A stretch of 64,000 bases of DNA from Bacteroidota bacterium. Lineage in GTDB: Bacteria > Bacteroidota > Bacteroidia > JAHEXY01. Position numbers and translations under genes: made by a program. Position 1 is the stretch's first letter. Each line of letters opens with the position of its first letter. This document shows positions 9,259 to 62,890 of this stretch, in pieces. Location of the stretch: contig JAHEXY010000015.1 of the NCBI GenBank assembly GCA_023251875.1, forward strand, positions 2,726 through 66,725, read 5' to 3'. A model generated the notes under the pieces. The model had not been told where the DNA came from. It searched no databases and saw only the letters and a list, made by a program, of their open reading frames with translations.

Positions 9259-9261
9259 CTT

Positions 9262-13855: not shown

Positions 13856-13885
13856 ATTAAATTTAAAGTGATAGTTGATCTTCTT

Positions 13886-14728: not shown

Positions 14729-14741
14729 CTGTAGATAATTT

Positions 14742-14818
14742 GTTTTTTATAAGTCATATGGTATACGTCATGCTATCTTCATCAGTGTTTGCGCATCGTT
14801 CGTGCATGACTATTTCAT
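14742..14818 (+). repeat. 77-nt element, copy A (inverted partner at 18429-18505)
   Basis: My hand alignment gives about 83 percent identity to the reverse complement of 18429-18505. Contains internal stem gtcatgc (14767-14773) / gcatgac (14804-14810). Confidence 0.8.
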
Positions 14819-15134
14819 TGTGCTTCTTTTTTAAAGAATATGAGTCAATATTTTTTTTGAAAAATGATCTTTGACAAAGGCATATAGTATGATTTTTAAA
14901 TAATCGTTAAAGCAAAGATGATTTTTATTATACAAGAACTAAATGAGCGCAATTATAGAGGAGTATGATCTTAGTCAGGTTAATACATGAGTTTTAAAAG
15001 ATCTTACATTTGATAAATGAGTATTGGTATAAAAATAACTTTGTATTGATAAAAAAAACCAAGGAGATTTATGCTATTACAATATTTTATACTTCATATT
15101 GGTATGGCTAAACATGATTATTTTTAGTTAATTT

Positions 15135-50392: not shown

Positions 50393-52405
50393 CTAAACCA
50401 ACTTCACTCCAATTAAGCAAACATCATCAACCTGATCAAGCGAAGCTTTCCATTTTTCAAAAGTTAAATGAAGTTCATGGCGTTGTTCCTCCATTCCTTT
50501 ATCACTAATAGAAATCAAAGTCTCTTTTAATCTTTTATAGGTATATTTTTTTCCTTGCTCTCCGCCAAATTGATCGGCATAACCATCTGAAAAAATGTAA
50601 ACAATATCTCCCTTTTGAACAGGAATTTCATTATTGGTAAAAAATTTAATTTCATTTTCTATAAATGCTCCTACAGCATGTCTATCTGCTTTAAATTCTG
50701 TAAGCTGTTTGTTCCTTACTAAATACAAAGGATTGTAAGCTCCTGCATATTCTAATGTCATTTTTTCCTTATCAAAACAACAAAGCGCAATATCCATTCC
50801 ATCTTGAAGCATTACTTCCTCTTTTCTACTTTTGTTTAAGGTATAATTTACTGTTTTATTCAAATGATTTAAAATATCACTTGGCTTAGTCAGTTTATAT
50901 TCGTTTACAGCTTGGTTCAATCCATTGTATCCTACAATACTCATTAAAGCTCCGGGTACACCGTGTCCGGTACAATCAACAGCAGCAAATAATATTTTAT
51001 TTTCGGTAGTAGCCATCCAATAAAAATCTCCACTAATAATATCCTTAGGTTTAAACAAAATAAAAGATTCATCAAGGTAATTTTTAACCAATTTCTTAGA
51101 TGGGTAAATAGCTTCTTGTATTCTTTTTGCATATTGAATGCTGTCTAAAATATCTTTGTTCTTTTGTTCAATTAAAACATTTTGCCTTGATATTTCTTCA
51201 TTTTGACCCGAAAGTAATTGATTAGCTTTTTGTTTTTGTCTAAATCCGCTATAAATAACAAAAGATAACATAAGCACGAGGATAAATCCCCCTGAAATAG
51301 CATACAAACGAAACATGCTTAGTTCATTTTCTTTTGTAAGAATGGCATTTTCCTTTTGTGTGCGTTCATTTTCTCTTTGAGTTTTTTCATTTTCATACTT
51401 TGCTTCCAATTCAGCAGCTTGCTTCCCTTGAGCTATATTTAATAAGGAATCTTTTACACTGCTATATATAGTATGGTATTTATAAGCACGTTCATAATTT
51501 CCGGAAGCAGCATAAACCGTTGATAATTTTTCACAGGCTGATTTATAGTAATCATTTGAGCCGGTTTCTTTCGACAACATTAAACTTTTATTTAATGTTT
51601 CAATAGCCGATGAATATTGTTTCATGCCATAAAAAATATCAGCAATATTATTTAAGGTATTGGCAACTCCTGCTTTATCATTTAATTCTGTTTTTAATGC
51701 GAGCGCTCTATTTAAAAAATCGATTGCTCTTTTATTTTCTTTCATAATAATATAAACCATTCCTATATTATTAAGGCACTTGGCTATTCCCTCTTTATTC
51801 TTAAGCTCTTCCATTATTGCCATCGATTTGTTATAATAATCAAGGGCGCTAAGATAGGCTTTTTTATTTTGTGCAACAGTTCCAAGATTAGTATAACTAC
51901 TTGCTATTCCCCATGCATCACCTAGCTCTTGCTTTATTTTTAAAGAAGCTAAATAATATTCTTCCGCTTTATCATAATTTTCTTGCTGAAAAAATATAAT
52001 ACCAATATTGTTATATGTTTTTAATAAAGTATGTTTATCATTAATTTCCTCAAATATTTTTATTGCCTTTAAATAATAATCAATTGAAATGGTATATTTT
52101 TCTTGGCGATAATAGGCTACTCCCATAAAATGATATGCTCTAGCCAAACCTAATTTATAATTAAGGGATCTGGCCAATTCCACAGCTTGCTGAGAATATG
52201 GTAATGCTGAATCCGGTATGGTTTTATTAAACTTTTCACTTATATCGTTTAATACAATAACCTTATTGGTATCCTCATTACATTTTTTTAAGACCAATTT
52301 CAAGCTATCTATTTCTTTTTGTGCAAATAGATGAGCAACCAAAAATAGTAAGGAAACAAGTATAGCTAACTTTTTGTATATCATATCTAAAAATACATTC
52401 TTCAT
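50393..52405 (-). CDS. TPR-repeat sensor with one TM helix and a C-terminal PP2C/SpoIIE-type serine phosphatase domain
   Basis: About 7 TPR units, a coiled coil, a TM segment, then ISGDFYW..AVDCTGHGVPGALMS..SDG. The start is uncertain (52405 or 52384). Confidence 0.8.
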   Translation of the reverse strand: MKNVFLDMIYKKLAILVSLLFLVAHLFAQKEIDSLKLVLKKCNEDTNKVIVLNDISEKFNKTIPDSALPYSQQAVELARSLNYKLGLARAYHFMGVAYYRQEKYTISIDYYLKAIKIFEEINDKHTLLKTYNNIGIIFFQQENYDKAEEYYLASLKIKQELGDAWGIASSYTNLGTVAQNKKAYLSALDYYNKSMAIMEELKNKEGIAKCLNNIGMVYIIMKENKRAIDFLNRALALKTELNDKAGVANTLNNIADIFYGMKQYSSAIETLNKSLMLSKETGSNDYYKSACEKLSTVYAASGNYERAYKYHTIYSSVKDSLLNIAQGKQAAELEAKYENEKTQRENERTQKENAILTKENELSMFRLYAISGGFILVLMLSFVIYSGFRQKQKANQLLSGQNEEISRQNVLIEQKNKDILDSIQYAKRIQEAIYPSKKLVKNYLDESFILFKPKDIISGDFYWMATTENKILFAAVDCTGHGVPGALMSIVGYNGLNQAVNEYKLTKPSDILNHLNKTVNYTLNKSRKEEVMLQDGMDIALCCFDKEKMTLEYAGAYNPLYLVRNKQLTEFKADRHAVGAFIENEIKFFTNNEIPVQKGDIVYIFSDGYADQFGGEQGKKYTYKRLKETLISISDKGMEEQRHELHLTFEKWKASLDQVDDVCLIGVKLV

Positions 52406-52618
52406 CTTGCAAAAATACAATGATTTCCTTAAGGTCAATCTAAATTGCTTGTAATAATTATTCTATAATACCCCTCCTTTTCATTTAAAAGAGTCTTATT
52501 TCAAAAAAAATACAAAAGTCTAATAATCAATATTTTAAATTCTTGATCCACATCTCAAACATTTATTAAATACTTATAAACGTCTTAAAATGTATTATTT
52601 ATTGGCTTCAATCAATAT

Positions 52619-52626
52619 TAATTTTG
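52619..52626 (+). promoter_or_regulatory. candidate -7 box (TAatTTTG) for the downstream nine-gene operon
   Basis: Exact TAnnTTTG match 79 nt upstream of the ATG at 52705. A TTG at 52602-52604 sits at shorter-than-ideal spacing. Confidence 0.35.
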
Positions 52627-52704
52627 CAGAACTTTTTTAAGCGCAGGCTTGATCAAGCCCCTTTTTTGATAAATAAGAATGATCATTTAATAATTAGACT
52701 GAAA

Positions 52705-53346
52705 ATGTTCAAGATTTCAAACAAAATTAAATTTTTTAAAATCTTATTTTTTTCAATCATTTTTATCTTATTCCTTGTTGGATTTGTTGCTTACAAATTT
52801 AGTCCTTATAAACACTCAGAAAACTATCCCTATAAAAATGTAGTTGATAATACGGTAATTATTAATGAACCTATTGATAGCGTGTATAGAATGTTAGGTC
52901 ATTCGAGTTACGCAAGACAGTGGTCGGTATTTGTACATCATATTACACCACTTAATCCAAATGAAGTTACAGATGGAACGCCTGGATCTATAAGAAGATG
53001 CTTTGCACAAGAAAATGAAAACGGAATTGTTTGGGATGAAGAAATATTGATTGTTGAACCCAATAAAAGAAGAAGGCTTAGCATTTTTAATACAAAAGGA
53101 TTTGAATCTGAATCGAATGATATACTAACAGAACAGTTGTATGAAAAAATTGATTCCAATACTACAAAACTAACCTTTATTGTTTTTAGAGATGAGAACA
53201 AAGAGATGGAATGGTGGAAACAAGCACTTTTGTATTACATAGCCTACAACATGAAAACCGTATTCGAAGAAAATATGGAAAATATAAAATATTTAGCAGA
53301 AGAAGGTGCTAACTATCATAGAAGGCATGAGTTAAAAACAAATTAA
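52705..53346 (+). CDS. membrane-anchored SRPBCC (START / polyketide-cyclase-like) ligand-binding protein
   Basis: N-terminal TM helix (FFKILFFSIIFILFLVGFVAY), then a ~150-aa helix-grip-like pattern. ATG at 52705 preferred over TTG at 52624. Confidence 0.55.
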   Translation: MFKISNKIKFFKILFFSIIFILFLVGFVAYKFSPYKHSENYPYKNVVDNTVIINEPIDSVYRMLGHSSYARQWSVFVHHITPLNPNEVTDGTPGSIRRCFAQENENGIVWDEEILIVEPNKRRRLSIFNTKGFESESNDILTEQLYEKIDSNTTKLTFIVFRDENKEMEWWKQALLYYIAYNMKTVFEENMENIKYLAEEGANYHRRHELKTN

Positions 53347-53395
53347 TAATGTAAGTTCAATTTTATCTTTTCTTAAAGAAAATTGCCCCACAGCA

Positions 53396-54712
53396 ATGAG
53401 TACAACAAGTGAGAAAGCTACAAGAGTAGTCAAAAATATTATTAAGTCGCAAGAAATAAGCGAGCTATCCAATAATTTAAGGCAAAAGCCTTTGCAATTA
53501 TTAGAAGACTATCCTGTTATTCCTCCTAATGGCCATTATACTGCCGATGGGCAAAAAAAGAGAATTGACCTCATTGAAAAACACAAAGGCATTTCTATTG
53601 ATTATTTAAAAGGAGACAAGCAATTTAAAGAAAATCATTTACTACAAGGAAACATTGAGCATTATATTGGAATGACTCAGGTTCCAACCGCTATTATTGG
53701 CCCTGTGCTTGTTAATGGCTCAAAAGCAAACGGATATTATTTTGTTCCATTAGCAACAACAGAAGGTGCCTTAGTGGCATCATATAATAGAGGAATAAAA
53801 GCAAGCCGTTTAGCAGGAGGTATTACTTCAATTTGCCTTCTTGAAGGTGTGCAACGCAGTCCCATTTTTAAATTTTATTCAGTAGTTGAGGTAGGAAATT
53901 TTTTGGTTTGGTTTTTAGAAAATTTAGAAAATTTCAAAAAAATTACATCACAAAATAGTAATTATGCAAAGCTCGAAGATGTAAAAACAAATATTGAAGG
54001 TTGTAACATCATTTTCACTTTTGAATTTACTACAGGTGATGCTTCTGGGCAAAATATGGTTACCATATGTACCGATGCCATTTGTAATTTTATTATTGAA
54101 AATTCTCCCATTAAACCACACACTTGGTATTTAGAATGTAATTATTCTGGAGACAAAAAAGCTACTTCACTTTCCTTTAACAATGTAAGAGGAAAAAAGG
54201 TCACTACAGAAGTTATCATACCCAAAGAAATAGTTAAGGATGTACTCAAGTCAACTCCCGAAAAAATGGTTGATTACACCTATTCCTCAACGTTAGGAGC
54301 TGTTCAATCGGGCTCTATTGGTGCTCAAGGGCATATTGCTAATGGGCTTGCTTCACTTTTTATTGCTTGTGGGCAAGACGCTGCATGTGTATCAGAAGCT
54401 TCTATTGGCGTAACACGAATGAATTTAACAGAGGCAGGTGATTTATATGCTGCACTTACTTTACCCAATTTAATTGTAGGTACTGTAGGTGGAGGAACCA
54501 GCCTTCCTACTCAAAAAGAATGTTTACAAATTATGGATTGTTACGGAGCCGGTAATGCCAAAAAATTTGCAGAAATATGTGGAGCACTTCTTTTAGCCGG
54601 TGAACTTTCAATTATTGCAGCTCTTTCTGATGGGCACTTTGCCAAAGCACATAGATTGTATGGCAGAAAAAGGCAATCCAAAACAAGTGCAGAATTAGGA
54701 ATTAAAAATTAA
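53396..54712 (+). CDS. class-I-type HMG-CoA reductase catalytic-domain protein (divergent paralogue)
   Basis: TTEGALVAS, TGDASGQNMV, SGDKKAT, CGQDAAC, GTVGGGTSLPTQ, LAGELS..AL.DGHF. All four class I catalytic positions (E, K, D, H) are present. Confidence 0.85.
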   Translation: MSTTSEKATRVVKNIIKSQEISELSNNLRQKPLQLLEDYPVIPPNGHYTADGQKKRIDLIEKHKGISIDYLKGDKQFKENHLLQGNIEHYIGMTQVPTAIIGPVLVNGSKANGYYFVPLATTEGALVASYNRGIKASRLAGGITSICLLEGVQRSPIFKFYSVVEVGNFLVWFLENLENFKKITSQNSNYAKLEDVKTNIEGCNIIFTFEFTTGDASGQNMVTICTDAICNFIIENSPIKPHTWYLECNYSGDKKATSLSFNNVRGKKVTTEVIIPKEIVKDVLKSTPEKMVDYTYSSTLGAVQSGSIGAQGHIANGLASLFIACGQDAACVSEASIGVTRMNLTEAGDLYAALTLPNLIVGTVGGGTSLPTQKECLQIMDCYGAGNAKKFAEICGALLLAGELSIIAALSDGHFAKAHRLYGRKRQSKTSAELGIKN

Positions 54713-54721
54713 GAATCACAA

Positions 54722-55720
54722 ATGACAACTGAGCTAGTAGAACAAGAAAAAGTAGTTGAGCAAATAATTAATAAAAAAACAAATATTGATTATAGTAAAA
54801 ACGATGCATCATTTGCTGAACGTTTTTATATTTATCAAAAAGAACGTTTTCCTTTTTTAGCGCATGGTTTGCTTATTGCTGCTTTTACTTTTTCTGCTGT
54901 TTCTTATTCAAGAATATGCAGAAATGCAGAAGGATTTATTTCTCTTACAACTTATTTAGTAGGCGCTTTTATTGCCGTTTCTCTTTTTTTTCTGCTAAGA
55001 ATATTTGATGAATTTAAAGACAAAGAAGAAGACGCTCAAAACCGCCCTTATTTACCTGTACCAAGAGGTTTAATGAAATTAAGTGAACTTAAAGTAATTG
55101 GAATCATAACTGCTGTATTGCAAGTTGCTGTTTTATCATTTACATATCCTCAATTATTGCCATTGTATTTTTTAGCCTTTGGTTATTTATCATTAATGGG
55201 TGTTGAATTTTTTGTTCCTACTTGGCTCAAACAACATACCTTTTTATATGTTACATCACACATGGCCATTATTGCACTCATTGATATTTTTTCAAGCGGA
55301 CTCGATTGGAGAATAGATGGCGTAAACGCTCCTGCCGGTTTGGGATTCTTTATTGCTGTATCATACATGAACGGTATGGTAATTGAATTTGGAAGAAAAA
55401 TGCGTGCCCCCGAAAATGAAGAATCTAATTCATACACCAAAATGTTGGGCATCAAAAAAGCCATTTATTCTTGGATAGCTTTATTATTTGTTACTCTCTT
55501 ACTTAGTATTATTGCATCAGTATTTGCAGGGTATGGCGTATTAGCAATAAGTATTTTAAGTGGTGTTTTTATTTTATGTTCCTTAACAGGAATATTTTTT
55601 CTATTAAAACCTTCTATTAAGTCTTCAAAGTATGTAGAATACGCATCTGCAGTATGGACGCTCAGCATGTATCTTACTTTAGGAGGAATTCCAATGCTGA
55701 CTAAATTATTGTTCTCATGA
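54722..55720 (+). CDS. UbiA-superfamily integral-membrane (prenyl)transferase
   Basis: About 8 TM helices; Asp-rich loop FDEFKDKEEDAQNRPYLPVPRG after TM2, as in UbiA enzymes. Confidence 0.65.
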   Translation: MTTELVEQEKVVEQIINKKTNIDYSKNDASFAERFYIYQKERFPFLAHGLLIAAFTFSAVSYSRICRNAEGFISLTTYLVGAFIAVSLFFLLRIFDEFKDKEEDAQNRPYLPVPRGLMKLSELKVIGIITAVLQVAVLSFTYPQLLPLYFLAFGYLSLMGVEFFVPTWLKQHTFLYVTSHMAIIALIDIFSSGLDWRIDGVNAPAGLGFFIAVSYMNGMVIEFGRKMRAPENEESNSYTKMLGIKKAIYSWIALLFVTLLLSIIASVFAGYGVLAISILSGVFILCSLTGIFFLLKPSIKSSKYVEYASAVWTLSMYLTLGGIPMLTKLLFS

Positions 55721-58362
55721 TAAAATGCATTACCGATATAGATCATTCTAAGCAATTACTTTCAGAAGAAATAGGCGGAAAAGCTAAAAATCTTTTTCAC
55801 CTAAAGGAATTAGGAATGAATGTTCCTAAATGGATGGTTATTCCTCAAGAATCTCTTTTAACTCTTATTCCCGATAATCTAATTACGAAAAAAGATAACA
55901 AACAAATTACAGAGTATATTGAAAATTTATGGTTAGGTGAAGCTTTTCATATTGAAGTGAAAAATTATTTCAACTTTTCAGAAAACCCCAATTTATATTT
56001 TGCCGTTCGTTCATCAGCCATTGATGAAGATGGAAGTGAGTTTTCTTTTGCAGGTCAATTTGAATCTTATTTATATGTTACCTATGCTGATTTAGAAGAA
56101 AAAATAAAACAAGTATGGTGTTCTGCCTTTTCAGAAAGAGTTTCAAATTATCGTAAAGAAAATAAACTAAAACACCAATTGGGTATTGCCGTTATCATAC
56201 AAGAAATGGTAAATGCAGAAGCCGCAGGAGTAGCATTTGGCATGAATCCTACAACGGGAGATAGAAAATCTCACGTAATATCAGCAGTATATGGTTTAGG
56301 TGAAGGACTTGTTTCAGGAGAACTAGATGCGGATGTTTTCTCTGTTAAAAATAATTTCATTGAAAAACTAATTGTAAAAAAAGAACATGCCATTGTTCAA
56401 AGCAATACGGGTAATGGAGTAACAAAAATAAATATTGAGCTAAATAAACAAAATAGCGCCTCCCTAAGCGACAAACAAGTTCTAGAGATCTCTAAAATAC
56501 TGGAAAAATTAAATGCAGCTTTTGTAAAACCACAAGACATTGAATTTGCAGTAGCACATGATCAAATATATTTATTACAAGCCAGGCCCATCACTAATTT
56601 AAATAAAGTTGCTGATACAAATGGAGAAGTAATTGTATGGGATAATAGTAATATTATTGAATCCTATCCGGGTGTTACAACCCCTTTAACCTTCTCATTT
56701 ATCATTAAACTTTATGAAGCGGTTTACAAACAGTTTTCAAGTTTAATGGGTGTAAGTGAAAAAGTAATTGAAGCAGAAAGCCATACCTATGCCAATATGC
56801 TAGGTTTAATTGAGGGTAGGGTATATTATAATTTATTGAGTTGGTATAAAGTATTACAACTTTTTCCGGGTTATTCAGTTAATGCTGAATTTATGGAAAA
56901 AATGATGGGTGTTAAAGAACGTTTTAACCTTGAACAAAAAAATAAGCTATCTAAGTTTCAAGCCTATAAAAGTCTTTTCATCATGGCCGCTAAAATGATT
57001 AAAAGCCTTATTACGCTGCCAAAACAGAGAGATCAATTTTTAAAAGATCTTGATGTTACTATGAAGGAATACAATGCCATCAACTTTGATGAATGCCGTC
57101 CTGATGAATTAATGCACCTGTATTTTAAATTAGAAAATACTTTATTAAAAAAATGGAAGGCTCCTCTCATTAATGATTTCTTTGCCATGATCTATTATGG
57201 TAGTTTACAAAAATTAATTACCAAATATAATATTGAACACAAGGGAAATTTACATAATGATTTATTGTGTGGAAGTAATGATATTATTTCTACAGAGCCG
57301 GTACATCGTTTATTAGAAATATCTACTACTATTATCAATTCAGCTGAAAGCAAAAAACTGTTTTTAGAAAAAGATGCCAACCAAATTTTAATAGAGCTTA
57401 AAAAGGAAAAATACAAACAGGTTGCTGTACTCATTAATGAATACATTCATAAGTTTGGAGAACGATGCGTAGGCGAATTAAAATTAGAAACCATTTCATA
57501 CAAACAAGAGCCCGCTTATCTGGTTAACATTATCAAATCATACGTTGCCCAAAATGTTACAAAACGTATTGCAGAAAACAACATAGAAGAAGAACTCAGA
57601 AAAAATGGAGAAGCATCTGTTAAAAAAGCATTAAAAAACAAACCGTTTAAAAAAGCATTTTTCAATTACTGGTTACGCGTTACACGCACGCTTGTAAGTA
57701 ATAGAGAAAATTTGCGTTATGAACGCACTCGTGCATTTGGTGTTGCCAGATCCATTTTTAGTGCCATTGGAAAACAATTTTATGCCGAGAGTATCATCAA
57801 TCAATCCAGAGATGTTTTTTATTTAACCAAAGATGAAATCTTCGATTTTATAAAGGGAACTTCCTCTAACCGAGATTTAAAATCATTAATAACTATTAGA
57901 AAAAAAGAATTTGAATTTTATCAAATTATGCCTGCCACTGCCGAAAGAATAAAAACGTATGGCATGGTTTACCAAGGAAACGATTTTTATAAAAATGCAT
58001 ATGCCCAAACGGAATTAAAGGGGGATTTAAAAGGTATTGGCTGTTGCCCAGGACAAATAAAAGGAAAGGTAAAGATTGTAAGAAATCCAAATGAAGTAAA
58101 CACATTAAATGGAGATATTTTAGTTACAGCAAGTACAGATCCGGGATGGGTAACATTATTTCCAACTGCCTCTGCCATACTTGTTGAAAGAGGAAGTTTA
58201 TTAAGCCACTCTGCTATTGTATCAAGAGAAATGGGTATCCCGTGTATTGTGGGTATAACGGGATTATTAAACACGCTACAAACCGGTGATGAAGTAGAAT
58301 TAGATGGAAGTACAGGACAAATTAAAATATTAAATAAACAATCAAAGATTGAAACCCTTTAA
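55717..58362 (+). CDS. PEP-synthase-like phosphotransferase with rifampicin-phosphotransferase-type architecture (N-terminal PPDK_N ATP-grasp, helical middle, C-terminal swivel-His domain)
   Basis: IGGKAKNLFHLKELGMNVPKWMVIP, AVRSSAIDED, IEFAV..IYLLQARPIT; C-terminal TDPGW..ILVERGSLLSHSAIVSREMGIPCIVG. No TIM-barrel PEP/pyruvate domain follows. Confidence 0.85.
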   Translation: MIKCITDIDHSKQLLSEEIGGKAKNLFHLKELGMNVPKWMVIPQESLLTLIPDNLITKKDNKQITEYIENLWLGEAFHIEVKNYFNFSENPNLYFAVRSSAIDEDGSEFSFAGQFESYLYVTYADLEEKIKQVWCSAFSERVSNYRKENKLKHQLGIAVIIQEMVNAEAAGVAFGMNPTTGDRKSHVISAVYGLGEGLVSGELDADVFSVKNNFIEKLIVKKEHAIVQSNTGNGVTKINIELNKQNSASLSDKQVLEISKILEKLNAAFVKPQDIEFAVAHDQIYLLQARPITNLNKVADTNGEVIVWDNSNIIESYPGVTTPLTFSFIIKLYEAVYKQFSSLMGVSEKVIEAESHTYANMLGLIEGRVYYNLLSWYKVLQLFPGYSVNAEFMEKMMGVKERFNLEQKNKLSKFQAYKSLFIMAAKMIKSLITLPKQRDQFLKDLDVTMKEYNAINFDECRPDELMHLYFKLENTLLKKWKAPLINDFFAMIYYGSLQKLITKYNIEHKGNLHNDLLCGSNDIISTEPVHRLLEISTTIINSAESKKLFLEKDANQILIELKKEKYKQVAVLINEYIHKFGERCVGELKLETISYKQEPAYLVNIIKSYVAQNVTKRIAENNIEEELRKNGEASVKKALKNKPFKKAFFNYWLRVTRTLVSNRENLRYERTRAFGVARSIFSAIGKQFYAESIINQSRDVFYLTKDEIFDFIKGTSSNRDLKSLITIRKKEFEFYQIMPATAERIKTYGMVYQGNDFYKNAYAQTELKGDLKGIGCCPGQIKGKVKIVRNPNEVNTLNGDILVTASTDPGWVTLFPTASAILVERGSLLSHSAIVSREMGIPCIVGITGLLNTLQTGDEVELDGSTGQIKILNKQSKIETL

Positions 58363-59494
58363 GATTGAAATGAAAATATACCCCAAGAACCCAATGAAAA
58401 AAGAACAATTAAGTAAAGTCAACTTTGAAATTATCCGTTATGCCAACTGTTGGGAAGATGTAGATATTTTACTTGAAGGTTTAAATGCTGAACAAGGCAA
58501 AAAAATACTATCAATTGGTTCAGCTGGTGACAATAGTTTTTCATTACTTATTACCAATCCGGAAACGGTTGTTGTTGTGGATATAAGCAAAGTTCAACTC
58601 TATTTAATTGAACTAAAGAAAGCCGCTTATCTGCATTTAACCTATTTAGAGTTTTTGGGGTTTCTTGGCTTTAGAGAATGGCCTAACAGAATAAAACTAT
58701 TTCATACTCTAAAAACTAGTTTAAGTGAAGATGCCAAAGCGTATTGGGAAAATCATATTACAGATATTGTAAATGGCATAATTTACTTGGGTAAATTTGA
58801 AAACTATTTTCATTTATTCCGTACAAAACTACTTCCTTTTATTCATTCAAAACAAACAGTAGAAAATTTATTTGAACAAAATTCAGCAGAAGATCAAAAT
58901 TCATTTTACAATCAACATTGGAACAATTGGAGATGGAAATTTTTATTCAATATCTTTTTTAGTAAAACTGTAATGGGTCGTTATGGAAGAGATCCTCAAT
59001 TTTTAAAACATGTAGAAATACCCGTTAACAAAGTAATATTAAACCGAACAGAAAACCATCTTAAAAGTGAACAAGTGGCTAACAACCATTTTTTACATTT
59101 TATTGTAAAGGGGTATTTCAAAAAACAATTACCCCACTATGCAAGAAGTGAGAATTTTGAGGTCATAAAAGAAAATTTGCACAAGCTTGTTTTAATAGAA
59201 GGCTTGGCAGAAGATGCATGCAAGCGATATGGAAAATTTCATTATTTCAATTTATCCAACATTTTTGAATACATGGATAAAGAAACTTTTAGAAAAGTGG
59301 CAAAAAATCTTATCCATTATAGTGAAGCCAATGCAAAATACGCCTATTGGAATTTAATGGTGCCAAGAGATATGTCTTCTGAATTTCCAAATGAAGTAAA
59401 AGCAAATAATGAATTGTCTCAACAATTAACTGAAAAAGACAAATGTTTTTTCTATAGTAAATTTCAAATATGCGAATCATTATATAATGAATAA
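58349..59494 (+). CDS. BtaA-like (DUF3419) SAM-dependent 3-amino-3-carboxypropyl transferase family protein
   Basis: YANCWEDVDILLEGL...KILSIGSAGDNSFSLL...VVVVDISKVQLYLIELK matches the BtaA/DUF3419 N-terminal signature. The start could instead be one of two downstream ATGs. Confidence 0.75.
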   Translation: MKPFKIEMKIYPKNPMKKEQLSKVNFEIIRYANCWEDVDILLEGLNAEQGKKILSIGSAGDNSFSLLITNPETVVVVDISKVQLYLIELKKAAYLHLTYLEFLGFLGFREWPNRIKLFHTLKTSLSEDAKAYWENHITDIVNGIIYLGKFENYFHLFRTKLLPFIHSKQTVENLFEQNSAEDQNSFYNQHWNNWRWKFLFNIFFSKTVMGRYGRDPQFLKHVEIPVNKVILNRTENHLKSEQVANNHFLHFIVKGYFKKQLPHYARSENFEVIKENLHKLVLIEGLAEDACKRYGKFHYFNLSNIFEYMDKETFRKVAKNLIHYSEANAKYAYWNLMVPRDMSSEFPNEVKANNELSQQLTEKDKCFFYSKFQICESLYNE

Positions 59495-59524
59495 AAAATA
59501 GACTTTTATAAGTATTAAAAAAAC

Positions 59525-60196
59525 ATGTTAACAAATTTAACCATAGTAGCTTCCATTTTTCTCAGCTTGTTTGCAACAGGAGAATTACTGTATCATAAAC
59601 TTAAAATTAAAGCAGAAATCAGCAGAAAATTTGTTCACTTATTTACAGGCGTATTTACATTTTTACTTCCTGAACTTATAGGCGATCATCGCATTGTATT
59701 TTGTCTGTGCTTAAGCTTTGCAATGCTATTATATGCAAGCAAAAAATATGGTTTTTTAAAATCAATTAATGCCATTGATCGTCCATCACAAGGTAGTTTA
59801 TGGTATCCCTTTATTATTTATGCATGTTATTATTTCTATTCTATTTCTAATGAATATATTTATTTCTATTTACCCATCTTAATACTTGCAATAGCTGATC
59901 CATTAGCAGCCTTGATTGGTAAAAAATGGCCAAAAGGAAAATATACAATCGGTTGTCATACTAAAACTGTTGTAGGCTCTGCGGCATTCTTATCAAGTGC
60001 TTTTATTATTTCTTTATCTATTCTGCTTATGCTTACTCCTGTTCCATTAATAATTTCAATAGCTATTGCATTGGCAATTGCCATTTTCACTACTATTGCT
60101 GAAGCATTAAGTAGAAATGGACTCGATAATTTTACCATTCCTGCGGCTTCGCTATTGGTATTACTTATTATTGAAAAATTTACAGAATTATTTTAA
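59525..60196 (+). CDS. CTP_transf_1 family membrane protein (phytol / dolichol / polyprenol-kinase-like)
   Basis: SRKFVHLFTG, AIADPLAALIGKKW, KTVVGSAAF, GLDNFTIP motifs; about 6 TM helices; 223 aa. Confidence 0.7.
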   Translation: MLTNLTIVASIFLSLFATGELLYHKLKIKAEISRKFVHLFTGVFTFLLPELIGDHRIVFCLCLSFAMLLYASKKYGFLKSINAIDRPSQGSLWYPFIIYACYYFYSISNEYIYFYLPILILAIADPLAALIGKKWPKGKYTIGCHTKTVVGSAAFLSSAFIISLSILLMLTPVPLIISIAIALAIAIFTTIAEALSRNGLDNFTIPAASLLVLLIIEKFTELF

Positions 60197-60207
60197 AAAT
60201 AAATAAA

Positions 60208-61278
60208 ATGCAATTATCTAATCAAGAAAAAAATACTGAAACTCTTTTAAAAATTGATTCAACTTATAAAATTGTTTCTACTCATCCTGGAGAAATTTAC
60301 TTTGAACTTTTTAAAAACTTTCCCAGTAAAATATATTCTGAAGAAGAATTACGTTTTAAACAAACCGAATCGGTAAGCTCAGATCATTTAGTTGGATGTT
60401 ATCTTTTATTTAGAAATGAAGAAATTGTAGGAAGATTTGCATTGTATAACAATCTGCTCTTATTTTACAACAATAAAAAAGCAGCATGCATTGGAAGCTA
60501 TGAATGTATTAATGAAGAAGAAGCCAGTAAGGCCTTATTAGGATTTGCAAGGCAAGAGGCTCAAAAAACAGGAGCAGAATTTTTAATTGGCCCCATGGAA
60601 GGTTCAACATGGAATAATTATAGATTTAGTAATTACAATTACCATCCTAATTTTTTTCTTGAACCTTATCATCATACTCATTACAACCAACATTTTATTG
60701 ATAATGGCTTTGCCTGTATTGCAGAATATGAATCAACGCTAGCCCCTAAGTTTTCTATTAATACAAGCAAAGTAAATGCACTTGAAAAAGATTTAAAATC
60801 AAAGGGATTAACATTTCGTAAACTAGATATTACTAATATAGATACTGAATTATTAAAATTAGCCTATTTTAGTAATGAAGCTTTTAAAGAGAATTTTCTT
60901 TACACCCCAATTAACCCAAATGTATTTGTAGAAAAATATAAAAAAATAATTCCCTTTATTAATCCTGAATATGTGTGGATGGCAGAAGAAAGTAATGGTA
61001 ATTTAGTTGGTGTTCATTTTTGTTACGATTCAAAATACCAACATCAAAAAACCTTAGTAATAAAATCATTGGCCAGAAGTAAAAATAAAAATTACAATGG
61101 CCTTGGAAACTATTTGGCAGCAAAGCTTATTAACAAAGCATTTAATGATGGCTATGAATACATGATATATGCATTTATGCAAAAAAACAATACTTCAGTA
61201 ATGAAATTATCGGATGAATTAAAAGCCGTTGAATATAAAAGCTATTCCCTTTACGGAACATCGCTACATCATCCATAA
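60208..61278 (+). CDS. hypothetical protein, possibly a double GNAT-like acyltransferase fold
   Basis: The weak pattern only (..VGRFALYNN.., ..LVGVHFCY..LGNYLAAKLINKAF..GY) suggests a GNAT-like fold; nothing decisive. Confidence 0.35.
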   Translation: MQLSNQEKNTETLLKIDSTYKIVSTHPGEIYFELFKNFPSKIYSEEELRFKQTESVSSDHLVGCYLLFRNEEIVGRFALYNNLLLFYNNKKAACIGSYECINEEEASKALLGFARQEAQKTGAEFLIGPMEGSTWNNYRFSNYNYHPNFFLEPYHHTHYNQHFIDNGFACIAEYESTLAPKFSINTSKVNALEKDLKSKGLTFRKLDITNIDTELLKLAYFSNEAFKENFLYTPINPNVFVEKYKKIIPFINPEYVWMAEESNGNLVGVHFCYDSKYQHQKTLVIKSLARSKNKNYNGLGNYLAAKLINKAFNDGYEYMIYAFMQKNNTSVMKLSDELKAVEYKSYSLYGTSLHHP

Positions 61279-61330
61279 ATTTAAAATACCCTAATAAAAT
61301 AAAAGAACTCAACAACCCAACCCTCATTGT

Positions 61331-62890
61331 ATGTTCCCAACCCCTGATCCCCTTATTTTTAACGAGGTGAAAAACGTAATTGAATATCTTCATGTAAATG
61401 CTCGGGAATATCCCGATAAAGTGGCCATTCAACACAAAGGCCGCTTTATTACCTATGCTTCTTTAGAAGAAGATGTGTTGCAAACAGCAGCCTATTTCCA
61501 AACCAAAGGTATTCATAAGGGTGATAGAGTACTCGTTTTTGTGCCCATGTCAATTGATTTATACCGTATTGTTTTAGCATTATTTAAAATAGGTGCCACT
61601 GCAGTATTTTTAGATGAATGGGTGAGTAAAGAACGAATGGAACTTTGCTGTAAAATTGCAGAATGCAAAGCATTTATTGGAATATGGAAAGCAAGACTAT
61701 TTTCTTATTTTTCTGAAGAACTAAGAAAAATACCCATCAAATTACGAGTTGATTATGAAAAAGTAAAAACCAAACCTACTTTCAATTATAAAACCGATCC
61801 TAACGACACCGCATTAATTACATTTACAACGGGCAGCACAGGTACTCCCAAAGCCGCTAAACGTACCCATTCTTTTTTACTTGAACAATTTAATGCTTTA
61901 ATAGAAGAAATTTATTTAACACCGGATGCCATTGATCTTACGATGTTGCCTATTTTTGTGCTTTGTAATTTAGGAATTGGCAGCACAACCATAATCCCTG
62001 AATTTAAAGCAAGCAAGCCCGATTCTCTTGATCCTGCTCAAATATTTAAACTCATTCAGCAACATAAAATAAATAGAATTTCGGCTTCACCATTTGTGAT
62101 TAAAAAAATGGCTACATATGCATTAGAAAACAATGTTGAAACAACTAAGCTAAAATATATTTTTACCGGTGGAGCCCCTGTTTTTCCTAAAGAAGCTCAA
62201 CTTTATGAAAAAGCATTTTCACATTCAAATGTTGAAATATTATACGGCTCAACAGAAGCTGAGCCAATCAGTAAAATAAATATTAAAACTTTAATTGAAC
62301 ACAAAACAGACCTATTAAAAAATGGCTTACTTGTAGGCAAACCTACACCCCTTATAAATGTTAAAACAATTAAAATTACTAACGAAGTTATGAAATGTCA
62401 TACCCCCGAAGACATGAACTTACTCGAAGTTTCAAAAAAAGAAATTGGAGAAATAGCCGTAAGCGGCAACCATGTATTAAAAGAATATTACAATAATGAA
62501 GAAGCCTTATTACGAAATAAAATTTTTATAGGAAAAGAAGTTTGGCACCGAACAGGTGATTCAGGATATTTAGATGATGATGGATCTCTATATCTTACCG
62601 GACGTTGTAATCAAATCATCTGGAAAAACGATCAATTGATTGCTCCTTTTTTATATGAAAATTTTCTTCAAACCATTGATGGCGTTGAAATAGGAACTGT
62701 ATTAGACCTCAACAATAACTTATCTATTATTATTGAATTATCCGCTAAAGCTGATAAAAATTATATTGAACAAGAAATTAAAAAGGCAGAAATGATTTAC
62801 GATGCAATTTTATTTGTTCCCAAAATTCCTCGCGATCCCAGACATAATTCAAAAATTGAGTATGCTAAACTTTTTGAACAAGTAAAGTAA
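61331..62890 (+). CDS. AMP-dependent synthetase/ligase (fatty-acid / acyl-CoA-ligase family)
   Basis: ITFTTGSTGTPKAAKRTH (AMP-binding motif), YGSTEAEP, HRTGDSGYLDDDGSLYLTGR. Confidence 0.85.
   Translation: MFPTPDPLIFNEVKNVIEYLHVNAREYPDKVAIQHKGRFITYASLEEDVLQTAAYFQTKGIHKGDRVLVFVPMSIDLYRIVLALFKIGATAVFLDEWVSKERMELCCKIAECKAFIGIWKARLFSYFSEELRKIPIKLRVDYEKVKTKPTFNYKTDPNDTALITFTTGSTGTPKAAKRTHSFLLEQFNALIEEIYLTPDAIDLTMLPIFVLCNLGIGSTTIIPEFKASKPDSLDPAQIFKLIQQHKINRISASPFVIKKMATYALENNVETTKLKYIFTGGAPVFPKEAQLYEKAFSHSNVEILYGSTEAEPISKINIKTLIEHKTDLLKNGLLVGKPTPLINVKTIKITNEVMKCHTPEDMNLLEVSKKEIGEIAVSGNHVLKEYYNNEEALLRNKIFIGKEVWHRTGDSGYLDDDGSLYLTGRCNQIIWKNDQLIAPFLYENFLQTIDGVEIGTVLDLNNNLSIIIELSAKADKNYIEQEIKKAEMIYDAILFVPKIPRDPRHNSKIEYAKLFEQVK

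What the first reader, a model, noticed from the sequence alone, without database searches (positions are those of the whole stretch)
52619..62890. Nine-gene co-directional operon that looks like an undescribed lipid / isoprenoid head-group pathway
Seen: nine + strand genes with gaps of 49, 9, -4 (ATGA), -14, 30, 11 and 52 nt, preceded by an exact TAatTTTG -7 box. Gene order: TM-anchored SRPBCC ligand-binding protein; class-I-type HMG-CoA reductase paralogue; UbiA-family membrane transferase; 881-aa swivel-His phosphotransferase; BtaA/DUF3419-like SAM aminocarboxypropyl transferase; CTP_transf_1 phytol/polyprenol-kinase-like protein; GNAT-like protein; acyl-AMP ligase. Established: HMGR-type enzymes reduce a CoA thioester by four electrons to a primary alcohol. 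VTE5/dolichol-kinase relatives phosphorylate isoprenoid alcohols with CTP. UbiA enzymes transfer (poly)prenyl diphosphates. BtaA makes the homoserine ether head group of betaine lipids. Inference: acid activation (ligase), reduction to an alcohol (HMGR-like), two phosphorylations (CTP kinase, then swivel-His kinase), alkyl/prenyl transfer (UbiA), then aminocarboxypropylation and acylation of a head group. I do not recognise this combination as any characterised pathway.
Basis: partly seen in the sequence, partly recalled or inferred. Interest (0 to 1): 0.85.

Follow-up and report, generated by a model that had tools for sequence, protein, structure and literature searches.

The report
Conserved fatty-alcohol lipid pathway operon
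This is a real, widely conserved eight-gene operon whose "HMG-CoA reductase" is actually a fatty acyl-CoA reductase, and which most likely turns a fatty acid into a phosphorylated fatty alcohol and builds from it an undescribed polar (probably ether-type) membrane lipid.

Summary
The operon is real, but it has eight genes, not nine. All eight family assignments hold; two of them hold only through orthologues.

Seven genes (reductase, UbiA-like, Rph/PPDK-like, DUF3419, polyprenol-kinase-like, GNAT-like, AMP-ligase) are collinear in all 52 complete loci of 80 fetched. These loci span five orders of Bacteroidota, and 306 species genomes hold a relative.

The "HMGR paralogue" carries every published diagnostic residue of FcrA, the HMGR-derived fatty acyl-CoA reductase characterised in 2025 (Ser684→Glu, Lys735→small, Leu862→Phe, catalytic tetrad kept). 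It is therefore not a mevalonate enzyme.

In other phyla the same module recurs with gene fusions:
- AMP-ligase–(ACP)–FcrA
- FcrA–APH kinase, in 49 of the 150 nearest representatives
- DUF3419–FcrA–APH

These fusions support the order ligase → reductase → alcohol kinase. The later steps are inferred: a second phosphorylation by the swivel-His enzyme, transfer by the DGGGPS-like UbiA enzyme, a SAM-derived aminocarboxypropyl head group, and N-acylation.

Accessory CdsA, CDP-alcohol transferase, MMPL and SRPBCC genes point to a membrane lipid. No paper describing the cluster was found.

The product is unknown.

The parts
52619..52626 (+). TAATTTTG, a Bacteroidota-type -7 box candidate, 79 nt upstream of the likely ATG of gene 1
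   Evidence: The sequence is read. The motif is not enriched in the window (82 found against 119 expected), so it is positional evidence only.
52646..52659 (+). Short GC hairpin followed by a T-run in the putative 5' leader, between the -7 box and the ATG; function untested
   Evidence: Terminator-like site GGCTTGATCAAGCC + CCTTTTTTGA.
52705..53346 (+). g1: single-TM-anchored SRPBCC (START-like) lipid-binding protein, 213 aa. It is an accessory member and sits between the GNAT and ligase genes in other loci.
   Evidence: Nine of 10 orthologues hit Polyketide_cyc2 (best E 6.5e-10); the window copy is sub-threshold. It is found in 10 of 80 loci. The ATG start comes from gene calls.
53396..54712 (+). 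g2: FcrA-type (class-I-HMGR-derived) fatty acyl-CoA reductase, 438 aa
   Evidence: Pfam HMG-CoA_red 375 bits, but TIGR00533 scores 323, below its cutoff of 442. The catalytic residues E559/K691/D767/H866 are kept. The FcrA signature is invariant in 66 orthologues: S684->E, K735->S/A/T, L862->F. It falls in the clade that excludes canonical HMGR.
54722..55720 (+). g3: divergent UbiA-superfamily membrane transferase, 332 aa; closest fold is archaeal DGGGP synthase
   Evidence: Pfam UbiA 44.3 bits against a cutoff of 34.2. D96/D100/D104 and D188/D195 are invariant. AF2 model pLDDT is 79.6; the Foldseek top hits are 7bpu and 6m31 (E 4e-5, TM 0.59-0.67).
55717..58362 (+). g4: Rph/PigC-type swivel-histidine ATP-dependent phosphotransferase, 881 aa (ATP-grasp + Rph_4th substrate domain + mobile His domain). 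It lacks the PEP/pyruvate TIM barrel.
   Evidence: Pfam PPDK_N and PEP-utilizers, plus Rph_4th. The best PDB relatives are the rifampin phosphotransferases deposited as 'PEP synthase', 5hv2 and 5fbs. His831 in LSHSAIVSRE is invariant in 71 orthologues. The start overlaps g3 by ATGA.
58370..59494 (+). g5: DUF3419 / BtaA-family SAM-dependent enzyme, 374 aa; putative 3-amino-3-carboxypropyl transferase
   Evidence: Pfam DUF3419 211 bits, full length. The motif S-x-[GA]-S-A-G-D-N is invariant. It is fused to FcrA in P0243 and P0303.
59525..60196 (+). g6: polytopic membrane protein, 223 aa; a distant CTP_transf_1 / polyprenol (phytol, dolichol) kinase-like protein and the putative fatty-alcohol kinase
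   Evidence: Four of 30 homologues hit PF01148, best E 2e-6. JGI names are phytol or dolichol kinase; the UniRef name is diacylglycerol/polyprenol kinase family. The AF2 model has pLDDT 92.5 and is all-helical. Its distribution is complementary to the APH kinase fused to FcrA in other phyla.
60208..61278 (+). g7: 356-aa protein with a C-terminal GNAT acyltransferase domain and an uncharacterised N-terminal half
   Evidence: Pfam Acetyltransf_1 27.9 bits against a cutoff of 20.7. Thirteen of 23 orthologues hit it. The family is also present in the Spirochaetota and Rhodothermales variants.
61331..62890 (+). g8: acyl-AMP/CoA ligase of the PRK09274/OleC-related subfamily, 519 aa
   Evidence: Pfam AMP-binding 161 bits; NF006754 365 bits. 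The A3 loop and Lys508 are invariant. The family is fused to FcrA in 10 of the 150 nearest representatives.

Best explanation
The operon encodes a pathway for a fatty-alcohol-derived polar membrane lipid.

Proposed steps.
1. g8 activates a long-chain fatty acid. This rests on family assignment.
2. g2 is an FcrA-type, HMGR-derived reductase. It reduces the acyl thioester by four electrons to a fatty alcohol. The family is biochemically characterised; membership here is shown by its diagnostic residues.
3. g6, a dolichol/phytol-kinase-like membrane protein, phosphorylates that alcohol. This is inferred from FcrA-kinase fusions elsewhere and from the complementary distribution of g6 and those fusions.
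4. g4, an Rph-type swivel-His enzyme, adds a second phosphoryl group or phosphorylates a neighbouring hydroxyl (inferred).
5. g3, a DGGGPS-like UbiA enzyme, joins the activated alkyl chain to an acceptor hydroxyl, giving an ether-type lipid (inferred).
6. g5, which is BtaA-like, adds a SAM-derived 3-amino-3-carboxypropyl (homoserine) head group, and g7 N-acylates its amine (inferred).
7. g1 (SRPBCC) handles the hydrophobic intermediate. In some genomes an MMPL exporter and a CdsA/CDP-alcohol transferase pair extend the pathway.
For: Synteny.
- Seven genes are collinear in 52 of 52 complete loci out of 80, across Flavobacteriales, Cytophagales, Sphingobacteriales, Chitinophagales and Saprospirales.
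- 306 species genomes hold a relative, and the flanks are not conserved.

FcrA identity.
- The catalytic tetrad plus E/small/F at human positions 684/735/862 are present in all 66 orthologues.
- This matches the published FcrA signature. [quoted passage not shown]
- Canonical S-K-L sequences fall outside its clade.
- No HMG-CoA synthase or mevalonate kinase appears in any of 91 contexts.

Fusions, counted among the 150 nearest representatives at 50% identity.
- 49 are FcrA-APH kinase.
- 10 are AMP-ligase(-ACP)-FcrA.
- 2 include DUF3419.
- One 1498-aa protein is ligase-ACP-FcrA-APH.

The same module in other phyla.
- L084: [DUF3419-FcrA-APH]-UbiA-PPDK.
- L085: [ligase-FcrA]-formyltransferase-UbiA-PPDK-MMPL-DUF3419.
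- L086, L087, L092 and L093 are further variants.
- L090 has a DAG-kinase-like gene, CdsA, DUF3419, a CDP-OH transferase and FcrA.

Alcohol kinase. Three unrelated kinase types sit beside or are fused to FcrA in different lineages: APH, g6-type and DAGK_cat.

An amine intermediate. A different amine-modifying enzyme accompanies DUF3419 in different loci: GNAT here, a formyltransferase in L085 and a methyltransferase in L024.

Lipid context. True CdsA plus CDP-OH_P_transf genes lie inside the cluster in about 7 Bacteroidota loci, with MMPL downstream in 3.

Active enzymes. The catalytic motifs of g3, g4, g5 and g8 are invariant. The closest fold to g3 is the archaeal ether-lipid synthase DGGGPS.
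Against: - Nothing here is experimental, and no lipid of this kind is known to me from these genera.
- A saturated alkyl diphosphate is not a known donor for UbiA enzymes, which normally ionise allylic diphosphates or PRPP.
- g6 could be a cytidylyltransferase rather than a kinase. The window protein itself reaches no Pfam threshold, and Foldseek found no PDB match.
- Some variants lack UbiA (L086, L090) or the PPDK-like enzyme (L090), so steps 4 and 5 are not universal.
- FcrA is absent next to the cluster in 5-6 Bacteroidota loci (L032, L049, L061, L075, L077).
- DUF3419 is assigned by family only. Only BtaA is characterised and no structure exists.
- The chain-length specificity of this FcrA subgroup is untested. 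It has Phe, not the Trp of the assayed subgroup, and no Lad domain.
- I could not scan the host genomes for a second, canonical HMGR.
Confidence: 0.45

Rival explanations
1. Alkyl-phosphate head-group route. The fatty alcohol is phosphorylated, and the alkyl phosphate itself is the lipid anchor. It would be CDP-activated or alkylated on its phosphate by DUF3419 to give alkyl-phospho-homoserine-type lipids. The UbiA enzyme would use an ordinary donor (polyprenyl diphosphate or PRPP, as in DPPR synthase) on this acceptor, rather than transferring the alkyl chain.
For: - CdsA/CarS and CDP-alcohol transferase genes occur with FcrA and DUF3419 where UbiA is absent (L086, L090), and also inside about 7 Bacteroidota clusters.
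- The UbiA family includes a lipid-phosphate-accepting PRTase, and 8j8j is among the fold hits.
- This route avoids the chemically unprecedented saturated alkyl diphosphate donor.
Against: - It leaves the universally linked Rph-like phosphotransferase without an obvious role.
- The best fold matches are DGGGPS and UbiA rather than the PRTase.
- The CdsA and CDP-OH genes are accessory, present in about 7 of 80 loci.
Confidence: 0.25
2. A secreted or signalling lipoamino acid rather than a bulk membrane lipid. FcrA makes a fatty alcohol, DUF3419 makes its O-alkyl-homoserine ether, and the GNAT N-acylates it. The kinases and the UbiA enzyme would tailor or prenylate the product, and MMPL would export it.
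For: - FcrA-DUF3419 fusions suggest consecutive steps.
- GNAT, formyltransferase and methyltransferase alternate beside DUF3419.
- The distribution is patchy, 306 species genomes, which resembles an accessory trait.
Against: - The kinase fusions are far commoner than the DUF3419 fusions, 49 against 2.
- Links to CdsA and CDP-alcohol transferase point to phospholipid-like chemistry.
Confidence: 0.15
3. g2 is the housekeeping class-I HMG-CoA reductase of a mevalonate pathway encoded elsewhere. The operon would then make a prenylated (isoprenoid) product, with g6 acting as a prenol kinase.
For: - There is a strong Pfam HMG-CoA_red hit with the catalytic tetrad intact.
- From general knowledge, not tested here: many non-Bacteroidia Bacteroidota use the mevalonate pathway.
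- g6 homologues are named phytol or dolichol kinase.
- A UbiA enzyme is present.
Against: - The HMG-carboxylate-binding Lys735 is lost and Ser684 is Glu in all 66 orthologues. These are the changes that accompany loss of HMG-CoA activity in FcrA.
- The score is below the TIGR00533 equivalog cutoff.
- The family is fused to fatty-acid-type AMP ligases with ACP and to kinases.
- No mevalonate-pathway gene appears in any sampled context.
Confidence: 0.05
4. A chance juxtaposition of unrelated genes, or simply a fatty-alcohol / wax-ester supply module.
For: FcrA was discovered in wax-ester synthesis.
Against: - The genes are collinear in 52 of 52 complete loci across five orders and recur with fusions in other phyla.
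- No WS/DGAT gene is seen in any context.
Confidence: 0.02

Closest known systems
FcrA, the class-I-HMGR-derived fatty acyl-CoA reductase (Grossi et al., ISME J 2025, PMC11948995)
   Same: g2 shares the fold, the catalytic Glu/Lys/Asp/His, and all three diagnostic pocket changes: Ser684->Glu, Lys735->small residue, Leu862->bulky aromatic. It lies in the clade that excludes canonical HMGR.
   Different: - It has Phe instead of Trp at position 862.
- It has no N-terminal Lad alkyl-carrier domain; a separate SRPBCC protein may play that part.
- It is not linked to a wax-ester synthase. It is embedded in an operon of kinases, UbiA and DUF3419 that the paper does not mention.
Plant/cyanobacterial phytol salvage: VTE5 (CTP-dependent phytol kinase), VTE6 (phytyl-phosphate kinase), VTE2 (UbiA-family homogentisate phytyltransferase)
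   Same: The logic is the same: lipid alcohol, then monophosphate, then diphosphate, then a UbiA-family transferase. g6 belongs to the same distant kinase superfamily as VTE5.
   Different: - The alcohol here is made de novo from a fatty acyl thioester and is probably not allylic or isoprenoid.
- The second kinase is a swivel-His Rph-type enzyme, not a VTE6/DUF92 protein.
- The acceptor is unknown.
Archaeal ether-lipid synthesis: DGGGP synthase (UbiA family), CarS, CDP-alcohol transferases
   Same: - The closest solved folds to g3 are DGGGPS 7bpu and 6m31.
- CarS-like or CdsA-like genes and CDP-alcohol transferase genes accompany the module in several lineages.
   Different: - There is no GGGPS and no isoprenoid synthesis genes in the cluster.
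- The hydrocarbon chain comes from FcrA.
- g3 has only about 16% identity to DGGGPS and gives no sequence-level PDB hit.
BtaA/BtaB betaine-lipid (DGTS) synthesis
   Same: g5 is a full-length DUF3419/BtaA-family protein (211 bits). One related locus has a methyltransferase right after it (L024).
   Different: - There is no BtaB in the window.
- The amine appears to be acylated (GNAT) or formylated rather than trimethylated.
- The acceptor is probably not plain diacylglycerol.
- g5 has not been compared directly with an assayed BtaA.
Rifampin phosphotransferase Rph and prodigiosin ligases PigC/RedH
   Same: The three-part architecture is the same: ATP-grasp, substrate domain (Rph_4th) and swivel His, with no PEP/pyruvate barrel. 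The His is invariant.
   Different: It scores below all the equivalog cutoffs. It is embedded in a lipid operon, and its substrate is unknown.
Myxobacterial ElbD ether-lipid enzyme (FadD-ACP-FarA reductase-PlsC-like), and the Ger/PlsA route
   Same: The ligase-(ACP)-reductase fusions that deliver fatty alcohol for ether lipids parallel the AMP-ligase-ACP-FcrA fusions.
   Different: - The reductase family is different (SDR-type FarA against HMGR-type FcrA).
- ElbD and Ger involve no kinases, no UbiA and no DUF3419.
- Ger makes ether bonds by reducing esters, and only anaerobically.

Membership tests
FcrA (HMGR-like fatty acyl-CoA reductase) | Class-I HMGR fold with the catalytic Glu559/Lys691/Asp767/His866 (human numbering) | tested here: met
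   Pfam 375 bits. All four residues are invariant in 66 orthologues.
FcrA (HMGR-like fatty acyl-CoA reductase) | Ser684->Glu, Lys735->small residue, Leu862->bulky aromatic (PMC11948995; the paper prints Lys795) | tested here: met
   E / S,A,T / F in 66 of 66 orthologues, including the window. Phe is present rather than the Trp of N. pharaonis FcrA.
FcrA (HMGR-like fatty acyl-CoA reductase) | Placement in the monophyletic FcrA clade, separate from characterised HMGR | tested here: inconclusive
   In a crude NJ tree, human HMGR and all S-K-L representatives fall outside the clade that holds g2 and the Q-type sequences.
FcrA (HMGR-like fatty acyl-CoA reductase) | Reduces acyl-CoA of C14 or longer to the alcohol with NADPH; no activity on HMG-CoA; insensitive to statins | not testable with these tools
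   This needs an enzyme assay.
Canonical HMG-CoA reductase (mevalonate pathway) | The HMG carboxylate-binding residues Lys735 and Ser684, and an equivalog-level score | tested here: not met
   Lys735 is lost and Ser684 is Glu. TIGR00533 scores 323, below its cutoff of 442.
UbiA superfamily | Pfam UbiA above the gathering score, two Asp-rich motifs, and the polytopic all-helical fold | tested here: met
   44.3 bits against a cutoff of 34.2. DExxDxxxD (96-104) and D188/D195 are invariant; the second motif has unusual DxxxxxxD spacing. Foldseek hits DGGGPS, ApUbiA and AfUbiA with probability 1.00.
DGGGP synthase | Orthology to the archaeal enzyme and use of GGPP + GGGP | tested here: inconclusive
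   It is the best fold match, but TM is only 0.59-0.67 with 16-17% identity. The NCBIfam PRK12884 score is far below its cutoff. The substrates cannot be tested here.
PEP synthase / PPDK | The PEP/pyruvate-binding TIM-barrel domain (PF02896) in addition to the ATP-grasp and swivel domains | tested here: not met
   Only PPDK_N, Rph_4th and PEP-utilizers are found. All the PEP synthase equivalog cutoffs are missed.
Rph/PigC-type swivel-His phosphotransferases | ATP-grasp + substrate domain + mobile domain with the catalytic His | tested here: met
   The architecture is shown. His831 is invariant. The Rph and PigC equivalog cutoffs are not reached, so this is a family member and not an orthologue.
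BtaA / DUF3419 | A full-length DUF3419 domain | tested here: met
   211 bits, covering profile positions 6-384 of 385.
BtaA / DUF3419 | SAM-dependent 3-amino-3-carboxypropyl transfer to a lipid hydroxyl | not testable with these tools
   There is no solved structure and no assayed sequence to compare with. The activity is inferred from the family only.
CTP_transf_1 / polyprenol (dolichol, phytol) kinase | A match to PF01148 or the kinase subfamily | tested here: inconclusive
   The window g6 has no hit. Four of 30 homologues hit PF01148, best E 2e-6. The g6 profile weakly hits a CdsA-like protein at 1.5e-4. Foldseek against the PDB finds nothing. The sources' names are phytol or dolichol kinase.
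SRPBCC (Polyketide_cyc2) | A match to PF10604 | tested here: inconclusive
   Nine of 10 orthologues match, best E 6.5e-10, but the window copy does not.
GNAT acyltransferase | A match to PF00583 above the gathering score | tested here: met
   27.9 bits against a cutoff of 20.7, residues 250-333. Thirteen of 23 orthologues match. The N-terminal 200 aa are unassigned.
Adenylate-forming acyl ligase (ANL) | The AMP-binding domain with the A3 loop and the A10 lysine | tested here: met
   161 bits. TxTxGSTGxPK and Lys508 are invariant. Whether it forms acyl-CoA or only acyl-AMP was not tested.

The most novel reading that the evidence does not exclude
Bacteria may possess a previously unrecognised, oxygen-independent way to build ether-type lipids from fatty acids.

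In this reading an HMGR-derived reductase makes a fatty alcohol. Two successive kinases convert it to an alkyl diphosphate: a dolichol-kinase-like membrane enzyme or a fused APH kinase, followed by an Rph-like swivel-His enzyme. A DGGGPS-like UbiA enzyme then transfers the saturated alkyl chain to an acceptor. This would be a fatty-acid-based mirror of archaeal ether-lipid logic. The lipid would be capped with a SAM-derived, N-acylated homoserine head group.

That would add a new donor class to UbiA enzymology. It would also give a candidate gene set for orphan alkyl-ether lipids in aerobic bacteria and sediments.
Probability: 0.22. Interest if true: 0.88.

Novelty: new variant of a known kind. 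Interest (0 to 1): 0.68.

Why it matters
**A reusable annotation correction.** Most bacterial "class-I HMG-CoA reductases" of this type are fatty acyl-CoA reductases. Here, and in hundreds of Bacteroidota genomes, they are being mis-annotated as mevalonate enzymes.

**A conserved downstream pathway for FcrA alcohols.** The FcrA paper left open what FcrA does outside wax-ester synthesis. This module, with its very common FcrA-kinase fusions (49 of the 150 nearest representatives), says that a phosphorylated fatty alcohol is a widespread bacterial intermediate. No known lipid pathway uses such an intermediate.

**Relevance to bacterial ether lipids.** The known bacterial ether-bond enzymes (PlsA/Ger, ElbD, AGPS) do not explain all alkyl-ether lipids. 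Ger worked only anaerobically. A kinase/UbiA route would be compatible with oxygen.

**It is directly testable.** Cultured carriers exist (Dyadobacter soli, D. jiangsuensis, D. luticola, D. psychrotolerans, Sphingobacterium alkalisoli, S. olei, Parapedobacter, Botryobacter ruber). Deletion plus lipidomics and a few enzyme assays would settle it.

Tried and rejected
**Literature.**
The term sets included DUF3419 + HMGR, BtaA + UbiA + Bacteroidetes, mevalonate + Bacteroidetes, 'HMG-CoA reductase-like', UbiA + HMGR + PEP-utilizing, an operon term set, FcrA, and glycerol ether + Bacteroidetes.
- Only the FcrA paper was relevant.
- The Lipocone paper mentions UbiA and HMGR, but in unrelated neighbourhoods.
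- The FcrA paper and the one supplementary file held as text do not mention Bacteroidota, kinases, UbiA or DUF3419.

**g6.**
- A profile search against PDB sequences gave nothing.
- A Foldseek search with a confident AF2 model gave nothing below E 0.39.
- The kinase assignment therefore rests on weak Pfam hits in homologues, on the sources' names, and on distribution.

**Profile or single-sequence searches against PDB sequences.** Searches for g1, g7, g3 and g5 gave no usable hits.

**My first residue mapping of g2.** I first mapped human Lys735, Arg590 and Asn755 onto g2 by eye, and the mapping was wrong. I redid it with an explicit alignment to the human catalytic domain, whose numbering I checked against known residues.

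**The cationic-substrate idea.** I considered that the Ser684->Glu change meant a cationic substrate of the carnitinyl-CoA type. I dropped this once the FcrA paper gave an experimentally grounded reading of the same substitutions.

**The -7 box as promoter evidence.** The motif is under-represented, not enriched. The sigma-70 scan is at background.

**Rfam.** There is no riboswitch or RNA family near the operon.

Full report
**1. Observation**

Between 52624 and 62890 the + strand carries eight ORFs, not nine.

- The next + strand ORF (62982 onward) is a secreted PQQ/BamB-like beta-propeller. It never accompanies the cluster elsewhere. It is probably the miscounted "ninth gene".
- Gene calls on identical metagenome contigs start gene 1 at ATG 52705 (213 aa) and gene 5 at ATG 58370 (374 aa). 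The TTG start that overlaps the "-7 box", and the -14 overlap, are therefore probably artefacts of the longest-ORF rule.
- TAATTTTG is at 52619-52626. TAnnTTTG occurs 82 times in the window against 119 +/- 12 in shuffles, so only its position speaks for it.
- A small hairpin plus T-run (52646-52659) lies between it and the ATG.

**2. Families**

- Pfam and NCBIfam confirm HMG-CoA_red, UbiA, PPDK_N + PEP-utilizers (+ Rph_4th), DUF3419, GNAT and AMP-binding.
- The window's gene 1 and gene 6 reach no threshold themselves.
- Nine of 10 gene-1 orthologues hit Polyketide_cyc2/SRPBCC.
- Four of 30 gene-6 homologues hit CTP_transf_1. JGI and UniRef name them phytol or dolichol kinase, or diacylglycerol/polyprenol kinase family.

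**3. Synteny**

- A profile of the UbiA-like protein found relatives in 306 species genomes. The 80 best loci are all Bacteroidota-like: Crocinitomicaceae/Fluviicola and other Flavobacteriales, Dyadobacter, Cyclobacteriaceae, Spirosomataceae, Sphingobacterium, Parapedobacter, Ferruginibacter, Saprospiraceae.
- tblastn with the window's proteins shows the order reductase-UbiA-PPDK-DUF3419-g6-GNAT-ligase in every locus long enough to hold it. Fifty-two of 80 loci have all seven genes, and all 52 are collinear. No locus is rearranged.
- Clustering all flanking ORFs shows that nothing outside these seven families is broadly conserved.
- The SRPBCC gene is an accessory member. It occurs in 10 loci, usually between the GNAT and ligase genes.
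It is a discrete, mobile, selected module.

**4. The "HMGR" is an FcrA**

- g2 scores below the TIGR00533 equivalog cutoff (323 against 442).
- An exhaustive search of 1.84 billion representatives showed that its nearest relatives share a DA[AS]GQNM motif instead of the canonical DAMGMNM.
- I aligned g2, 66 full-length orthologues and the representatives to the human catalytic domain. I checked the numbering against known residues.
  - The catalytic Glu559, Lys691, Asp767 and His866 are invariant.
  - Ser684 is Glu in 66 of 66.
  - Lys735, the salt-bridge partner of the HMG carboxylate, is Ser, Ala or Thr.
  - Leu862 is Phe.
- Grossi et al. (ISME J 2025, PMC11948995) characterised exactly this kind of protein as FcrA.
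  - The Ca. Promineifilum enzyme reduces acyl-CoA of C14 or longer to fatty alcohol with NADPH.
  - It does not reduce HMG-CoA and is not inhibited by simvastatin.
  - The paper names Ser684->Glu, loss of the conserved Lys, and Leu862->bulky residue as the distinguishing changes.
- In a crude NJ tree, human HMGR and all five "S-K-L" representatives fall outside the clade that contains g2.
- None of the 91 genomic contexts I looked at contains HMG-CoA synthase, mevalonate kinase or a decarboxylase.
- g2 is therefore best read as a fatty acyl-CoA reductase. The "housekeeping mevalonate HMGR" rival is unlikely, although I could not scan the host genomes for a second copy.

**5. Fusions and distant variants**

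Among the 150 nearest representatives at 50% identity:

- 49 carry a C-terminal APH/EcKL-type kinase domain.
- 10 carry an N-terminal AMP-ligase domain, some with a carrier-protein domain.
- 2 carry DUF3419.

One 1498-aa protein is ligase-ACP-FcrA-APH.

| Locus (source) | Gene order; square brackets mark fused proteins |
|---|---|
| L084 | ligase (cut), [DUF3419-FcrA-APH], UbiA, PPDK-like |
| L085 | [ligase-FcrA], formyltransferase, UbiA, PPDK-like, MMPL, DUF3419 |
| L086 (Spirochaetota) | [FcrA-APH], PPDK-like, g7-like, ligase, [CDP-alcohol transferase + CarS-like] |
| L087 (Rhodothermales) | g7-like and PPDK-like, divergent from ligase, DUF3419, MMPL, [FcrA-APH], UbiA |
| L092 | MMPL, DUF3419, [FcrA-APH], PPDK-like (cut) |
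| L093 | PPDK-like, UbiA, ligase, DUF3419, [FcrA-APH] |
| L090 (Gemmatimonadota) | DAG-kinase-like, CdsA, DUF3419, CDP-alcohol transferase, FcrA |

Two further contexts did not carry the module. L088 has an FcrA-kinase fusion among nucleotide-related genes, and L089 has a lone FcrA.

- Fusions normally join consecutive steps. The order ligase -> FcrA -> kinase is therefore well supported.
- DUF3419 acts close to these steps.
- The g6-type membrane kinase (Bacteroidota) and the fused APH kinase (other phyla) are complementary. This is my main reason to call g6 the fatty-alcohol kinase.
- The two Bacteroidota loci that lack g6 (L061, L075) also lack FcrA.

**6. The remaining enzymes**

- **g4.** It has the Rph/PigC architecture without a PEP/pyruvate barrel, and an invariant swivel His831. 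It is an ATP-dependent phosphotransferase for a bulky substrate, not a PEP synthase.
- **g3.** It keeps the DExxDxxxD motif and a second Asp pair. Its AF2 model (pLDDT 79.6) matches archaeal DGGGP synthase best (7bpu and 6m31, E 4e-5, TM 0.59-0.67). After that come ApUbiA, AfUbiA, UBIAD1 and the membrane PRTase.
- **g5.** It is a full-length BtaA-family protein with an invariant S-x-[GA]-S-A-G-D-N motif.
- **Amine modification.** An amine-modifying enzyme of changing type accompanies g5: GNAT in most loci, a formyltransferase in L085 and a methyltransferase in L024. This fits a free amine such as that of an aminocarboxypropyl group.
- **Lipid context.** About seven Bacteroidota loci have a true CdsA (128 bits) and a CDP-alcohol phosphatidyltransferase inserted in the cluster. 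Three have an MMPL exporter downstream. All of this points to an envelope lipid.

**7. Mechanism**

- Shown, or close to shown: a selected seven- or eight-gene module, and an FcrA-type reductase.
- Strongly inferred: fatty acid activation, reduction to fatty alcohol, and phosphorylation of that alcohol.
- Inferred:
  - a second phosphoryl transfer by g4;
  - UbiA-catalysed transfer that forms an ether-type lipid;
  - a BtaA-like aminocarboxypropyl head group;
  - N-acylation.
- The weakest link is chemical. UbiA enzymes are known to use allylic diphosphates or PRPP, not saturated alkyl diphosphates.
- The main rival keeps the alkyl phosphate as the anchor. It would be CDP-activated, or O-alkylated by SAM on its phosphate, and the UbiA enzyme would use a conventional donor.

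**8. Comparison and novelty**

- The reductase is a new member of a family described in 2025.
- The kinase-kinase-UbiA logic resembles plant phytol salvage (VTE5/VTE6/VTE2).
- The UbiA/CarS/CDP-alcohol set resembles archaeal ether-lipid synthesis.
- The ligase-ACP-reductase fusions resemble ElbD.
- g5 resembles BtaA.
- No known pathway combines these, and none uses a phosphorylated fatty alcohol.
- Ten literature searches found no description of the cluster. The FcrA paper does not mention UbiA, kinases, DUF3419 or Bacteroidota.
- I rate it a new variant of a known kind: a lipid-biosynthesis operon with a new combination and a probably new intermediate. It is of real interest to lipid biochemists and directly testable in cultured Dyadobacter or Sphingobacterium.

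**9. Dead ends**

- Foldseek and PDB profile searches for g6, g1, g7 and g5 gave nothing.
- The sigma-70 scan is at background.
- Rfam finds only a tRNA-Cys in the window.
- My first by-eye mapping of human residues was wrong and was replaced by an explicit alignment.

Noticed in passing
P0297, P0292, P0314, P0277, P0374 and others; loci L084, L086, L087, L091-L093: FcrA (HMGR-like reductase) fused to an APH/EcKL-type kinase is very common: 49 of the 150 nearest 50%-identity representatives, in Spirochaetota, Rhodothermales and unnamed metagenome lineages. One 1498-aa protein is AMP-ligase + carrier protein + FcrA + APH. This implies that 'fatty alkyl phosphate' is a widespread intermediate. 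The FcrA paper does not discuss it.
   Followed up: partly
L011 9174-9977, L054 8668-9977, L013, L029, L050, L068, L031: In about 7 Bacteroidota loci a bona fide CdsA-like cytidylyltransferase (PF01148, 128 bits) and a CDP-alcohol phosphatidyltransferase are inserted inside the cluster. They lie either between the reductase and UbiA genes or between the PPDK-like and DUF3419 genes.
   Followed up: partly
L090 (Gemmatimonadota CP070823.1, locus 6242-16285): This is a different FcrA/DUF3419 neighbourhood without UbiA or the PPDK-like enzyme. It holds a DAG-kinase-like gene, CdsA, DUF3419, a CDP-alcohol transferase, FcrA, a MacB-type ABC transporter, an Orn/DAP/Arg decarboxylase and a FemAB-like protein. 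It may be another unknown lipid head-group pathway.
   Followed up: no
L011 14428-15938 and L054 17011-18524: A HipB-like HTH plus HipA toxin-antitoxin pair, together with other genes, is inserted between the PPDK-like and DUF3419 genes. It splits the otherwise compact operon in two MAGs.
   Followed up: no
L068 7410-8696: The FcrA gene is split into two adjacent ORFs (282 + 139 aa) in one Flavobacteriales MAG. This is either a frameshift/pseudogene or an assembly error.
   Followed up: no
window 52646-52659: A terminator-like hairpin (GGCTTGATCAAGCC) followed by CCTTTTTTGA lies in the putative 5' leader of the operon, between the -7 box candidate and the ATG of gene 1. It could be an attenuator, or it could be chance.
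   Followed up: no
window 50393-52438 (- strand): A divergently transcribed 681-aa protein has TPR repeats, one TM segment and a C-terminal SpoIIE/PP2C phosphatase domain, directly upstream of the operon. It is not conserved beside the cluster in other genomes.
   Followed up: partly
window 25791-36944 (+ strand): A giant 3717-aa ORF has beta-helix, five CARDB, DUF7619 and PKD domains and a T9SS Por_Secre_tail. Several other T9SS cargo proteins lie at 2151-3995 and 18616-20466. These mark the window as Bacteroidota.
   Followed up: partly
window 39887-41554 and 43196-45019 (- strand); 45347-45418: Two RHS-repeat ORFs lie next to the only tRNA gene of the window (tRNA-Cys). A RhuM/Fic-domain protein follows at 48554-49537. 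This may be a polymorphic-toxin or island-like region.
   Followed up: no
P0267, P0285: FcrA-type (DAxGQNM) sequences are also recorded from eukaryotes: Corallochytrium limacisporum and the crinoid Anneissia japonica, where it is annotated 'HMGR 1-like'. This is either horizontal transfer or contamination.
   Followed up: no
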